Origin: Octopus vulgaris
Taxonomy: Eukaryota
NCBI GenBank assembly: GCA_951406725.2
Contig: OX597828.1
Span: forward strand, 45,136,001 to 45,200,000
Direction: 5' to 3'
DNA length: 64,000 nucleotides
The notes beneath the pieces were generated by a model. The model had not been told where the DNA came from. It worked only from the letters and a program-made list of their open reading frames with translations, and made no database searches. A program made the position numbers and the translations under genes. Below, in pieces: positions 47,153 to 57,316 of this stretch (within the stretch, counting starts at the first letter, position 1; each line of letters opens with the position of its first letter).

Positions 47153-47161
47153 CTGATTCAT
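47153..47161 (-). CDS. Candidate 9-nt microexon (MNQ in phase 0, DES in phase 1)
   Basis: (ct)n...cccttaatcggtacttctacag|ATGAATCAG|gttagt; branch-like CTTAAT. Confidence 0.6.
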
Positions 47162-49682
47162 CTGTAGAAGTACCGATTAAGGGTCCATGGTGATTTTGGT
47201 AAGGAGAGAGAGAGAGAGAGAAGTAGAAGATGCCAGTCAAGTTACTAATTCGTGTCAAAGGTCAACAGGGGTCTTACATTGTAGATATACAGATACTATT
47301 ACATAGCTATACAAATGTATAAATATTATATATATATATATTATAATAAATATTGAAGAATGGAGTTAGCAAATCACTTTAATATATTGTTTACAATTGT
47401 TTCATCATTATCCATTGTAAAAAATCTTGTGTCACGTTGTAACAATGCTGAAAACTATTGATTAATTTCTGTGCTATGCAGAATTACTTTTATAGCACAT
47501 GTTGGAGATGATTCCTTAGAACTTTGTAAAAAAATAATTAGCGTATGTATCCTTTAATGTTTGTAATATACCAAGTTATATTAAAAAGAAATTTAACTCT
47601 AAAATTAAGAAGTACTCAGTATTATTTATCACAATTTTACAAGTGCATCTATATATGTGTGTGCATATATAAACATATACATTCATATATACATACATAA
47701 AGGATGATAAGTTGCATATATATATATGTATATATACTCACATATCTTGCTATATGTATGTATGCTTACAGGAAAAATACAAAGAAAAGGTTATTTTTAT
47801 ACATGTATGTTTTTTTGTTTAAAAAAAAAACAAGCTTGTTTAATTAAACTCGAGGGGTAAATAGTTCATTCTATGCATTTTATATATAAGACAATAAAAT
47901 TAAGAAAGTAAGTTTTCACATAACAAATGTTTTTGTATTATAGTTTTACTGAACATATGTGTATGTATTTACAAGTTAAGTTCAACATGCATAACACAAG
48001 TAAAAGCGAGAGAAAGAAGAAAAAGACCACACGTCACTTTGTATTTTCATGTGGGGAAATGGTTTATTGTATACATTTTTCTGTGTTAGGTATCATAGTC
48101 AAAAGAGGTTTGTAGTAGAAGAAAAATCATACCTAACCAATTTGCACTGTTTTTCAGCTCAACAAAGTTTTGGGAAATTAATATGTTCAAATAAATAAAC
48201 ATATGTATATGTATATAAATATATATATATATATATATATATATATATATATATATGCATGTGCATGTGTGCATATGTATACATGTAGGTATATATATAT
48301 TTACAAACAGACATATATATATGCATCCACACAGATATACATATATACACATATATAGAGAGATATGTATGTGTGTGTATATATATATATATATATATAT
48401 ATATATATATATACACACACACACATACATGTAAATATGCATATATGTTGAAAATTGTAGAAGATTAGACAAGTTCCATGAAATAGAAGACTGCCAGCTA
48501 AATATTGATTTTCTATTTATGCAAAACCAAACTCAATTATTGAGTATGACAAAGAGTAAAGAATTTGTTAACAACCATGCCGTGGTCCCAGTGACCTCTG
48601 TCTGAGTACTTGGTAGTTTAGTTGCAGGTTCAATACTAGAGGTTATTGTAGAAACGAGCTATTTAGTTTCATTATTTTGATTGTGCCATTTTTTAAATCC
48701 ATGAAAAATGATACACAACAGTTCTACATTTAAGAGATGAGGAATTATGTACATTATTTACATTTGACAGATATTTCTCCTCATCTTGTTTGTTGTTGTT
48801 AACACAACGTTTCGGCTGATATACTCTCAGCAGAGGATATATACATGCATATATATATATACATATATATATATTTTATTTATATATAGAGGGCATTATT
48901 ATACATACATGCCACACGCTATATACATATATATATATAAAACACTATATGAGAGAGGTTTTCTTTAAGTATTGGAAATAGTTTTTGAAAAAGTTTTTTA
49001 GCTGCTATTTCTAATGAGTTCAGTATGCGGCAAAGTAATTTATTTTACTAAGCCCTTTTATATAATGTAATAATTTGAATTCGCCTTAAATGGTCCCTTT
49101 GTATACTGAATACTTGGTGAAATTGATTAATTAATTAATTTTACCCTCAATTGTTGAAATCATATATATATATATATATATAACACATATATATATATAT
49201 ATATATATATATATATATATATATATATATATATATATATATATGCATATATTGGCCTGCTCGCTTAGCCAGCGAGGTGGCGTCATTTGAAGGCTAAAAC
49301 AATGCAAAGCGCATTGTGACCAGCGATGTGTTGCAACATCTGATAGCCTGGTCGGTCACGTGATCACGTGATATGCATATATATATATGTATATGTACAT
49401 ACATATATATATATATATACACACACATATACACATACATACACACACATGTAAATACGTAAAACCATGTAAATGTTAGGTTGAGAAACACATCTACATA
49501 GAAAAAGGTGAAGGTCTGCCATGAGACTTAAACCCATACAACTTGTAGGCATGACAGGTGTTGTACCTTTGAATAAAAGTAATCTTTTGAAGTTCTCTCT
49601 GTACTGCAGCATTTTCAGTTCCAAAGAGTAGTGTAGCCTAGTATTTATATGTATAGCTTTATGTACTTCAAGATCCACTCAC

Positions 49683-49733
49683 CTGGATTTCGGATTCCAG
49701 ATTAATACTGAAATTCTTCAGGTGTAGAACATC
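49683..49733 (-). CDS. Candidate 51-nt cassette exon (phase 0: DVLHLKNFSINLESEIQ)
   Basis: Consensus donor CAG|gtgagt; weak acceptor (tgccatcatgaaaccag); only phase 0 is open. Confidence 0.3.
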
Positions 49734-50393
49734 CTGGTTTCATGATGGCAAAACCATTGTGTATTTATAGCAAAGAATAAGATATAGCCCAAATAATAAG
49801 ACTGGAAGCTATTATTCAGATTATATATGTGTATGTGTATATATATATATATATATTATTTGTTTCAGTCGTTTGACCATGGCCATGCTGGAGCACTGCC
49901 TTTAGTCGAACAAATTGACACCAGGGCTTATTATTTGTAAGCCTAGCATTTATGCTATTAGTCCCTTTTGCTGAACCACTATGTTACGGGTATGTAAACA
50001 CATCAACATTTGTTGCCAAGTAGGGGAACAAACACACACAAACACATACATACATACATACATACATACATACATACATACATATATATATATATATATA
50101 TATATACAACAGGCTTCTTTCAGTTTCTATCTATCAAATCCACTCACAAGGCTTTGGTCAGCCTGAGGCTATAGTAGAAGACACTTGCCCAAGCTGCATA
50201 TATATATAATAAATAATTTGGACAAATAAGTATAATTTGATTAATGTTTTTAATAAAATTACTAAAAATCAGAAGAATGGAGATTTATTATACAGTCATT
50301 GCAGCATTCTTCCCTTAGATCTATGCCCGTTTTGGCTGCAACCGCTGCACACAGCTAGTTTTCTTTAGATGCACTTTGAACGGCAACAAACAA

Positions 50394-54075: not shown

Positions 54076-56089
54076 CATGTATGTATGTGTGTATGTGTGT
54101 GCATATATATATATATATATATATATATATATATATATATATATATCATCATCATCATCATCATCATCATCATCATTGTCATCATCTTATATCTACATTC
54201 GATGCTGCAATGAGATGGTCTGACAGGAACCAATAGCCAAAGGAGTTTGCTAAGCTCAAATGTCTACTTTGGCATGGTTTCTAAGTGTGTGTGTGTGTAC
54301 CTGCATGTGTGTGTATGCGTATTGAACTGGAAGAATGAGTATGGAAAACCAGAAAGTTGGACAAAGGATTTTTTAAATAGAAATTTTGATCTCTCTCTGG
54401 AACCCAAGGTTTCCTTATGACAAAGATCAACACTTTTTAATCAGAATTCAAAATGCGTATGAAACTCAGCAAATTAAAGTTGTTTAATATACAGGCAAAT
54501 GATAACCATATGCATTTATATATGCAAATGCTTATGCACATGAGTGTCTGTATAAGTGTGTCTTGGGGGTGACGTCTGAGACCTGGACATAATTTCTGTT
54601 TCCTAAATTCCATTCACAAGTCAGTATTCAAGCAAGGAGACTGGAGTAAATACTTATGCAATGCAACAAATAGTGGCACACTGTGGAGCAGTGTGGGACA
54701 CTGTAGGGATGCGTGGAATACTGTGGAGCAGTGTGACACACTGTCAAATCAAACTCAGAACCATTTGGTTGTATAAAGATCATTTTTTCCATAGCTATGC
54801 TTGTCTAATATTTGCCTTTCTCTCTGAGAAAAAGAGTTCAAATACTGTAAAGTGTAAAGCAGAAGCTTTTAGACTTTCTCCATAGAATGGTACAGTGAAT
54901 AAATTATTAAAATACCATATATATTCATATAAAGATGGAGATAACAATAACTGGGACATTACTGATCAAAAGTTTACATCCATACATGTGCATACCTGCA
55001 CCCTCCAAAATACATGCATGACTTCTTTTCAAATTTTCTAAGTGCTCTGTTACTTAAGTTTCATGTTTCCATTACCTAACGATAGGAAAAATAAAATTTC
55101 TTCTAATGGCCTTTGTTGAAATTAACAGGTTAAAAAAACTTAGAATCATTATAAGCACTATTTGACTCACTGAGACTCCTTATCTCTCATTTATAAAATT
55201 ATATGTACTCTTATCTATGTAACTACCTACATATCTGCCTGCCTGTCTGTCTGCCTGTCTATCTATCTATTTATCTATGTGTTTGTCTCTCTGAGTGTCT
55301 ATCTATCTTTCTCTGTGTGTATGCATGTATGCATGTGTGGATGTGTGTATGTGCGTGTGCATGTATCTATGTGTGTATGTATGTGCATGTATGCATGCAT
55401 GTGTGTGTGTATATGTACATATGTATTTGTATATATACACACACACACATGTATGTATGCATGTGTGTATGTGTATACGTACATATGTATTTATATATAT
55501 ACACACACACACACATATATATATATGTGTATGTATATATGTACATACAGACAGACAAACACACACACACACACATGCACACACATACACTAAACATCAT
55601 GTAAACGTATAATGAAATGAAATCAAAATAATTCACAACATTATACAAATATTTATTGATGTTTTTTTTGAGCTGTTTATTTGCTTCTTCAGTTTTTATT
55701 TTTAGTTTTCTTTCTCTTATCTTGTTTTTCCTTTATTATTCTCTTCTTAAAATATTTTCCTGAGATTTACTCCTAAAAAGTCATTCCACATACATAAACA
55801 CACCATATATATATATATATATATATATATACACACACACACACACACACACACATATATATATATATATATACACACACATATATATGTATATATACAC
55901 ATTTATATATGCATACATATATATATATATATATATATATATATATATATATATATATATATATATATATATATATATAAATATATATATATCAACAATG
56001 ACAACAGCAACAAAAACACAAACATCAAAATCATCCAACAGCAACAGATTTAATCAGGATATAGAAAAAAATTAAAGTGATAACGGCAT

Positions 56090-56960
56090 AACCAGTAATA
56101 ATAATAATAATAATAATAATAATAATAATGATAATAATAATAATAATAATAATAATAATAAATGGCGATAACAATAATAAGACTAAGTTAAAGTATTGCA
56201 GTAAAAAAAATGCATGATGTGCAGTATGTTATTGCATGAAAATATCAAATAAGAATAATCATTTCTGTTTTGGTAAGGAAAATGATATCTGTTTTATTTT
56301 TTATTTCGAAATAGTGACAATAAAAATAATGATAAAAATAATGATAATAATAATAATAATTATAATAATAATAATAATAATAATAATAATAATAATAATA
56401 ATAATAATAATAATAATAATAATAATAATGATAATAATAATAATAATGATAATAATAATGATAATAATAATGATAATGATAATAATAATAATAATAATAA
56501 TAATAATAATAATAATAATGATAATGATAATAATAATAATAATAATAATAATAATAATAATAATAATAATAATAATAATAATAATGATAATAATAATAAT
56601 AATGATAATGATAATAATAATAATAATAATGATAATAATGATAATGATAATAATAATAATAATAATAATAATAATAATAATAATAATAATAATAATGATA
56701 ATAATAATAATAATGATAATGATAATAATAATAATAATAATGATAATAATGATAATTATAATAATAATAATAATGATAATGATAATAATAATAATAATAA
56801 TAATGATAATAATAATAATAATAATAATAATAATAATAATGATAATGATAATAATAATAATAATGATAATGATAATAATAATAATAATAATAATAATAAT
56901 AATAATAATAATAATAATAATAATAATAATGATAATAATAATAATGATAATAATTATAAT
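56090..56960 (+). repeat. Very long (TAA/TGA)n microsatellite
   Basis: About 620 bp continuous from ~56340; source of the poly-I ORF. Confidence 0.97.
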
Positions 56961-57307
56961 TTTACTACTACTAAATAATTAAGAAAGATAATAACAACAG
57001 CGATGACAACACCAACAACATCAACAACAAACAACATCCATAACACTAACAACCGTGAAAGTCAGTAAAAGAAATTGTGTTATTTACATAGAATAATATT
57101 AAGAAAAAATATAAAAATTTCTTAAAAGTGATGCAAAAAAATATGATAAAAATTGTAAAAAAAAAAAAAAATTGAGAAAAATATGAAAGTGAAATTGCTT
57201 TTTGTTTTTTTTTTTTACTTTCTTATATTTTCTTGAAGAACATGCTAGTTAGAAAGGTAAAAAAAAAAAATATATATATAATGCTATAAAGTAGCTTTAA
57301 CACTGAC

Positions 57308-57316
57308 CTGTAGCAT
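57308..57316 (-). CDS. Candidate 9-nt microexon (MLQ in phase 0, DAT in phase 1)
   Basis: tctcgctctcctttcatcttcttcag|ATGCTACAG|gtcagt; very long upstream pyrimidine tract; CTAAC and GCATG ~55-65 nt downstream. Confidence 0.65.

What the first reader, a model, noticed from the sequence alone, without database searches (positions are those of the whole stretch)
47153..57316. Twin 9-nt microexons ATG-NNN-CAG 10 kb apart
Seen: ATGCTACAG|gtcagt and ATGAATCAG|gttagt share length, first and last triplets and a GTYAGT donor, each behind a CT-rich tract. Inference: a paralogous or mutually exclusive 3-residue switch (MLQ/MNQ or DAT/DES). Because both begin with ATG, they could alternatively be start-codon microexons if the 62540 exon is 5' UTR.
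Basis: partly seen in the sequence, partly recalled or inferred. Interest (0 to 1): 0.7.

Follow-up and report, generated by a model that had tools for sequence, protein, structure and literature searches.

The report
Twin microexons behind a minor intron
Two look-alike 9-base candidate exons lie 10 kb apart in an unnamed animal gene, and rare minor-spliceosome (U12) signals beside them would likely force the cell to use exactly one of them, a trick known from JNK genes but not found in our literature searches for exons this small.

Summary
The two 9-mers are there, on the minus strand (ME1 57308-57316, ME2 47153-47161). Their 24-nt cores match at 19 of 24 bases, more than chance gives. The upstream exon holds the strand's only U12-type donor (GTATCTTT, 62563), 24 nt before a U2 donor. 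ME2 has no adjoining pyrimidine tract but has a U12-type branch site (CCTTAAT) 16 nt before its AG. ME1 has a 160-nt pyrimidine tract and only a weak U12-like branch site. Both 9-mers end in U2 donors. The ME1-to-ME2 intron would then be a U2/U12 hybrid that neither spliceosome should remove, so the exons would be mutually exclusive: a mirror image of the JNK2 switch. The only frame open through the 41-nt upstream exon and both 9-mers gives MLQ or MNQ; DAT/DES is closed by a stop. Whether the ATGs are internal or start codons is open. Splicing, conservation and the host gene were not established. Verdict: new variant of a known kind, from sequence signals only; confidence about 0.55, interest 0.55.

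The parts
62605..62659 (-). U2-type acceptor tract of the upstream exon (55 nt of at least 85% pyrimidine; AG-free zone 216 nt)
62564..62604 (-). Upstream exon, 41-nt form (E41), ending at the U12-type donor; its phase-0-ending frame is open ([14 protein letters not shown])
   Evidence: sequence; that it is an exon is inferred
62556..62563 (-). U12-type 5' splice site TTT|GTATCTTT, the only GTATCYTT on the minus strand
   Evidence: same 8-mer as the human UFD1 U12 donor (PMC7367187)
62540..62563 (-). 24-nt extension giving the 65-nt form (E65); closed in all frames, in-frame TAA as its last codon
62534..62539 (-). U2-type donor AA|GTAAGT, 24 nt downstream of the U12 donor
57320..57479 (-). 160-nt polypyrimidine tract before ME1, with a second acceptor at 57382 (75-nt form)
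57326..57334 (-). Weak U12-like branch site TCCTTTCAT (6 of 9 to TTCCTTRAY; A at -11)
57308..57316 (-). ME1, ATGCTACAG (M-L-Q)
57302..57307 (-). U2-type donor of ME1, CAG|GTCAGT
47200..47223 (-). CT tract at -62..-39 of ME2, upstream of the branch site
47176..47182 (-). U12-type branch site CCTTAAT (7 of 9; A at -16); ME2's AG is the first AG after it
47153..47161 (-). ME2, ATGAATCAG (M-N-Q)
47147..47152 (-). U2-type donor of ME2, CAG|GTTAGT

Best explanation
ME1 and ME2 are likely duplicate 9-nt exons that would be kept mutually exclusive by major/minor spliceosome incompatibility. Shown in the sequence: a U12-type donor at 62563, a U12-type branch site before ME2, a weak U12-like site plus a 160-nt pyrimidine tract before ME1, and U2-type donors after both. 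Inferred: (1) the minor spliceosome joins the 41-nt exon to ME2 across a 15,402-nt GT-AG U12 intron. (2) ME1 is the competing partner, 5,247 nt from the same donor, reached through its weak branch site and probably under regulation by the long pyrimidine tract. (3) ME1 cannot join ME2, because that 10,146-nt intron would have a U2 start and a U12 end. (4) Skipping both would pair the U12 donor with a downstream U2 acceptor, so exactly one is used. The product would be ...IFKF-M-L-Q or ...IFKF-M-N-Q, a one-residue switch inside a protein. The U2 donor at 62539 would be a cryptic or poison site, since it puts a stop in that frame.
For: Pair similarity 19 of 24, reached by 0 of 60 simulations. 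CCTTRAY with its branch A at -22..-9 stands before 4 of 3,251 YAG sites on both strands, ME2 included. Of the 3 sites with such a branch and a YAG 9-21 nt on, only ME2 has a strong donor within 200 nt. GTATCYTT follows within 200 nt of 1 of 1,555 minus-strand YAGs, and that one is the upstream exon's acceptor. U12 introns lack an adjoining pyrimidine tract (PMC3584512 passages), as ME2 does. GTATCTTT is a real U12 donor (human UFD1) and -1 U is enriched in U12 donors (PMC7367187 passages). One frame is open through E41 and both 9-mers. The precedent is JNK2, whose hybrid intron has a long pyrimidine tract that steers exon choice (PMC1874599).
Against: The model rests on sequence signals in one genome; splicing and conservation are untested and the host gene is unnamed. 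Neither motif is enriched in the window overall (3 found against 10.1 and 5.7 expected), so only their placement counts, and it was noticed post hoc. The donor departs from GTATCCTTT at +6 and +9; the +6 C-to-U change weakens a U12 donor and wakes nearby U2 donors (PMC1874599). ME2's branch A is at -16 against an optimum of 11-13 nt. ME1's branch site is only 6 of 9 and its acceptor looks U2-type, so step (2) is the weakest. Only about 22% of minor introns are phase 0 (PMC10639083 passage). E41 has 1 G in 41 nt, as only 3% of 3,950 unmasked windows do, which is odd for coding DNA. Exon-like sites also arise by chance: 8 of 19 plus-strand acceptors have a donor within 200 nt, 6 of them in repeats. 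The strongest unmasked minus-strand donor (49682) lies between the two 9-mers and is unexplained.
Confidence: 0.55

Rival explanations
1. Nested-intron, start-codon version (a sub-case of the same incompatibility logic; its probability is counted inside the 0.55). The upstream exon is 5' UTR. The major spliceosome joins its U2 donor (62539) to ME1 and the minor spliceosome joins its U12 donor (62563) to ME2. Each ATG is the start codon, so spliceosome choice sets an MLQ or an MNQ amino terminus.
For: It uses all four sites with matching types: U2 donor with the pyrimidine-tract acceptor, U12 donor with the branch-site acceptor. Both 9-mers begin with ATG. E65 has no ATG and is closed in all frames, and E41 is very G-poor. 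The layout resembles SRSF10 and prospero, with U2 splicing nested in a U12 intron (PMC8329584 section 7).
Against: Both junctions have T at -3. The frame in phase with the ATGs is open across all of E41, as expected of coding sequence. Minor introns in UTRs are barely documented.
Confidence: 0.2
2. Ordinary U2 microexons: both 9-mers are cassette or mutually exclusive exons spliced by the major spliceosome under neural regulators (eMIC/SRRM type), and the U12-like motifs are coincidence.
For: Long AG-free zones (64 and 81 nt) and UC-rich tracts match part of the eMIC code in flies (PMC8797185 section 10). Both have good U2 donors. CCTTAAT could also serve as a U2 branch site.
Against: There is no TGC within 50 nt of either acceptor and no CTRAY branch site before ME2 or within 70 nt of ME1. 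It leaves two rare, well-placed U12 motifs unexplained. No docking-site/selector pairing stood clearly above shuffles.
Confidence: 0.17
3. Only one 9-mer is live. ME2 is a constitutive 9-nt exon after a U12 intron and ME1 is a decayed or cryptic duplicate, or the 3' end of a 75-nt exon. A variant: ME2 is an 11-nt exon of an AT-AC intron whose donor lies outside the window.
For: ME1 has two strong acceptors, and the distal one has TGC at -9. A TAC lies 13 nt after ME2's branch A, at the optimum distance.
Against: ME1 is the best-scoring unmasked exon candidate on the strand and keeps length, frame and M-x-Q while its middle codon differs fully. GT-AC pairing is disfavoured. The only minus-strand ATATCYTT upstream in the window (61585) has no exon-like context.
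Confidence: 0.16
4. Chance look-alikes in repeat-rich intronic or intergenic DNA; nothing here is spliced.
For: No coding exon of a host gene was recognised in the window. CT microsatellites are common here. Exon-like sites occur on the plus strand too.
Against: The similarity and co-location statistics.
Confidence: 0.12

Closest known systems
Vertebrate JNK (MAPK8/9/10) exons 6a/6b with a U12/U2 hybrid intron (PMC1874599, parts 2-3 of 5 read; PMC8329584 section 7 part 1 read)
   Same: Duplicate exons; a hybrid intron between them that neither spliceosome should splice; a long pyrimidine tract before one exon.
   Different: Mirror orientation: here the U12 intron is upstream and the hybrid has a U2 start and a U12 end. 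The exons are 9 nt, against 72 nt for JNK (recalled), and lie 10 kb apart. The host gene is unnamed and exclusion is untested.
TMEM87a/b exons 11/11a (PMC6717393 passages; PMC8329584)
   Same: Tissue-dependent mutual exclusion around a minor intron.
   Different: 72-nt exons, with the minor intron downstream.
Nested U2-within-U12 introns: Drosophila prospero twintron, SRSF10 exon 3, and CENATAC competing donors (PMC8329584 section 7)
   Same: U12 and U2 donors close together at one exon end; an exon lying inside the U12 intron.
   Different: Prospero and SRSF10 are AT-AC introns. None has a paralogous microexon pair or a start-codon choice in the text read.
eMIC/SRRM3-4-dependent neural microexons (PMC8797185 section 10)
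   Same: Very short exons, long AG-free zones, UC-rich tracts.
   Different: No UGC near either acceptor; U12-type signals instead; very long introns.
Arthropod p38 exon triplet behind a U12 donor (scan note e1-7708314, an unchecked AI note)
   Same: Same orientation as proposed here: one U12 donor upstream of duplicate exons.

Membership tests
U12-type (minor) GT-AG intron 62563-47162 | 5' splice site RTATCCTT, allowing one C-to-T change at +5 or +6 | tested here: met
   GTATCTTT; rule from PMC2846911 passage; UFD1 example. It departs from full consensus at +6 and +9.
U12-type (minor) GT-AG intron 62563-47162 | Conserved branch site (CCTTRAY core) close to the 3' end | tested here: met
   CCTTAAT, 7 of 9, A at -16; slightly beyond the 11-13 nt optimum.
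U12-type (minor) GT-AG intron 62563-47162 | No polypyrimidine tract next to the 3' splice site | tested here: met
   0 nt adjoining; 57% pyrimidine at -38..-4.
U12-type (minor) GT-AG intron 62563-47162 | Excised by the U11/U12/U4atac/U6atac spliceosome, which the organism must have | not testable with these tools
   No genome is held. The organism looks octopus-like by its repeats (recalled, not tested); molluscs include minor-intron-rich species.
U12-type intron 62563-57317 (to ME1) | U12 branch site before ME1 | tested here: inconclusive
   TCCTTTCAT, 6 of 9, at -11, lacking the CCTTRAY core; the 160-nt pyrimidine tract is U2-like.
Mutually exclusive exons by spliceosome incompatibility (JNK type) | Homologous exons of the same length and frame | tested here: met
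   Both 9 nt, 19 of 24 core identity, both open in phase 0.
Mutually exclusive exons by spliceosome incompatibility (JNK type) | Intron between the copies has ends of different spliceosome types | tested here: met
   By sequence: U2 donor GTCAGT at 57307 and U12-type acceptor at 47162.
Mutually exclusive exons by spliceosome incompatibility (JNK type) | Transcripts carry one copy, never both or neither | not testable with these tools
   Needs junction reads from this species; see Tried and rejected.
Mutually exclusive exons by spliceosome incompatibility (JNK type) | Layout conserved in related species | not tested
   Reads were laid on the upstream exon; no related genome was available.
eMIC/SRRM-dependent neural microexons | UGC close to the 3' splice site | tested here: not met
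   None within 50 nt of the ME1 or ME2 acceptor; one at -9 of ME1's distal acceptor.
eMIC/SRRM-dependent neural microexons | Long AG exclusion zone and UCUC-rich tract | tested here: met
   64 and 81 nt; 111 of 1,547 minus-strand YAGs reach 63 nt; 9 and 8 TCTC per 100 nt.
Mutually exclusive exons by competing RNA structures (Dscam type) | A docking site complementary to a selector at each exon | tested here: not met
   9 region pairs: 8 at or within 0.1 kcal/mol of the range of 12 shuffles, 1 beyond it; that one is an 11-bp match, found in 9% of 2,000 shuffles, with no twin at ME2. Only a few hundred bases near each exon were tested.
Start-codon microexons | Upstream exon is non-coding and the ATG initiates translation | tested here: inconclusive
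   E65 is closed and has no ATG, but E41 is open in frame and -3 is T at both junctions.

The most novel reading that the evidence does not exclude
The two spliceosomes choose the start of a protein. A U12 intron in the 5' UTR and a U2 intron nested in it lead to two duplicate 9-nt start-codon exons, so major splicing gives an MLQ amino terminus and minor splicing an MNQ one, with the hybrid intron forbidding both. Met-Leu and Met-Asn ends are substrates of different N-acetyltransferases (NatC and NatB; recalled), so the switch could set N-terminal processing or localisation.
Probability: 0.2. Interest if true: 0.8.

Novelty: new variant of a known kind. Interest (0 to 1): 0.55.

Why it matters
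Spliceosome incompatibility is documented for a few genes with exons of about 70-80 nt. A pair of 9-nt exons run this way would show that the minor spliceosome can define, and choose between, microexons across introns of 5-15 kb. It would link two regulatory layers that our searches found no paper joining. It also yields four exact junctions that existing RNA-seq could confirm or kill quickly. Aligners and annotation pipelines readily miss both 9-nt exons and GT-AG U12 donors (general knowledge; the second point also in PMC8329584).

Tried and rejected
Transcripts: no RNA holder listed on record for 57200-62700. Contigs of 4 of the 24 listed runs (X1, X3, X8, X16; RNA status only guessed) laid on 62470-62660 covered only the repeat at 62470-62511 and not the exon. 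These blanks say nothing either way. No genome is held. Naming the host gene: the translated upstream exon gave no PDB, Pfam or Atlas hit and no protein at E<=10 among 5 candidates. A power test showed that even a perfect 14-residue match scores E=12 or worse in 9 of 9 decoys, so one search is uninformative. A scan of metagenome contigs for the branch-site-plus-microexon motif gave 23 loci; none showed an animal-like context, most lie in long ORFs, and the best-looking one (L006) is upstream of a prokaryote-like gene. Eight longer ORFs scanned against Pfam gave 3 retroelement hits and no host gene. The reverse-transcriptase search did not name the organism. No Rfam or tRNA matches. No third copy of the 9-mer. 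Docking-site/selector pairing was not supported. No clustering of YCAY, TGCATG or ACTAAY near the exons. DAT/DES was rejected for this upstream exon. Scan notes by place and by sequence were empty, as were two word searches. The supplement of PMC10639083 was listed but not read; it and the online minor-intron databases might list this intron. PMC12637451 (passages) was not useful.
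Full report
Setting. The window is AT-rich, 46% of it masked as repeat, with retroelement fragments. No host-gene coding exon was recognised. Its repeats look like octopus DNA; this is recalled and was not tested. No genome is held.

Observation. Both 9-mers are real sequence on the minus strand: ME1 at 57308-57316 and ME2 at 47153-47161. They are the only two matches to their shared pattern with one mismatch allowed (0.05 expected; post hoc). Their 24-nt cores match at 19 positions; the next best site has 16, and 0 of 60 simulated windows reached 19. Under a rough splice-site score of my own, ME1 (in its 9-nt and 75-nt forms) is the best unmasked exon candidate on the strand. 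The two acceptors differ, however. ME1 has 160 nt of pyrimidines up to its AG. ME2 has none adjoining, and its CT tract sits 39-62 nt upstream.

The spacer before ME2 holds CCTTAAT, a U12-type branch core, with the branch A at -16 and ME2's AG the first AG after it. Such a site precedes 4 of 3,251 YAGs in the window. Of the 3 with a YAG 9-21 nt on, only ME2 has a strong donor after it. The upstream candidate exon (acceptor 62604, AG-free zone 216 nt) contains TTT|GTATCTTT after 41 nt. This is the only GTATCYTT on the minus strand, and 1 of 1,555 minus-strand YAGs has one within 200 nt. A U2 donor, AA|GTAAGT, follows 24 nt later. Among 23 pyrimidine-rich, long-AG-free acceptors on the minus strand, 4 have a strong donor within 200 nt, and 3 of those belong to this set. 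On the plus strand 8 of 19 do, 6 of them in repeats. Neither U12 motif is enriched in the window; the case rests on placement.

How good the U12 signals are. The 5' site and branch site define U12 introns, a pyrimidine tract is absent, and the best branch distance is 11-13 nt (PMC3584512, passages). GTATCTTT is the donor of the human UFD1 U12 intron, and -1 U is enriched (PMC7367187, passages). It meets the rule used in PMC2846911 (passages). It is a weaker variant: +6 C-to-U in WDFY1 left correct splicing but activated nearby U2 donors (PMC1874599, parts 2-3 of 5), which may be what the 62539 donor is. ME1's best branch-like site is TCCTTTCAT, 6 of 9, at -11: right distance, poor core.

Reading frames. 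Through the 41-nt exon, one frame is open and ends in phase 0, giving ...IFKF then MLQ or MNQ. A second frame is open with ME1 but stops in ME2. The 65-nt form is closed in all frames, and its last codon is an in-frame TAA directly before the ATG. For a start-codon reading: ATG opens both copies, and E41 has 1 G in 41 nt. Against it: T at -3 in both junctions, and the open frame. I put internal Met at about 0.35 and start Met at about 0.2 within the 0.55 given to the incompatibility model.

Mechanism (inferred). The U12 donor pairs with ME2 over 15,402 nt. ME1 competes, either for the same donor (5,247 nt) or through the U2 donor (5,223 nt). Both exit by U2 donors to an exon not identified here. 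The 10,146-nt intron between them has a U2 start and a U12 end and should not be removed (lengths). This mirrors JNK2, where a hybrid intron and its long pyrimidine tract govern exon 6a/6b choice. It also resembles the nested layouts of SRSF10 and prospero (PMC8329584, passages and section 7 part 1) and Tmem87b (PMC6717393, passages). The eMIC code (PMC8797185, passages and section 10) is only partly met: long AG-free zones and UC tracts, but no UGC. Competing RNA structures were not supported. PMC11347168 (passages) defines hybrid and minor-like classes and notes that U2 can also use a minor-type branch site, which keeps the U2-only rival alive.

Novelty. The mechanism is known. I found no report of it for microexons in searches on microexon with cephalopod (2 papers), minor intron with microexon and U12 (12), U12 with UTR, N-termini or microexon (7), spliceosome incompatibility (3) and 'mutually exclusive microexons' (0). 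Most of these were seen as listings only, and the library lacks most subscription journals. PMC10639083 (passages) says almost nothing is known of minor introns in UTRs and lists Octopus sinensis among the species compared. Three unchecked scan notes, seen after I had noted the idea, describe the same logic for larger exons in other animals.

Limits. Splicing, conservation and the gene's identity remain open; the attempts are listed under Tried and rejected. Verdict: probably a real pair of paralogous microexons (about 0.75 that both are spliced), likely mutually exclusive by U2/U12 incompatibility (0.55); new variant of a known kind; interest 0.55.

Noticed in passing
window 2071-2091 (-): 21-nt exon candidate open in all frames, with TGC at -9 of its acceptor and a GTGAG donor, in unique sequence; a possible eMIC-type microexon of the same gene.
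   Followed up: partly
window 49682-49770 (-): The strongest unmasked donor on the strand, CAG|GTGAGT at 49682, with TATAAA about 85 nt upstream and only short ATG frames; a possible alternative first exon between ME1 and ME2.
   Followed up: no
window 42189-42205 (-) and 38715-38762 (-): 17-nt and 48-nt exon candidates with GTAAGT donors, both open in phase 0; possible downstream partners, weakly scored.
   Followed up: no
window 62582-62592 and 57029-57039 (-): 11-bp perfect complement between the upstream exon and a site about 270 nt past ME1; 9% of shuffles do as well.
   Followed up: yes
window 47547-47554 (+): A perfect U12 donor 8-mer, GTATCCTT, on the opposite strand about 390 nt from ME2, with no exon-like context noted; probably chance.
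   Followed up: no
window 34309-34911 (+), 21585-22010 (-), 10094-10558 (+): Retroelement fragments: RVT_1 above the Pfam cut-off, and two weak zf-RVT hits below it.
   Followed up: partly
window 56319-56960: 642-bp AAT-type microsatellite about 350 nt downstream of ME1 in the predicted hybrid intron.
   Followed up: no
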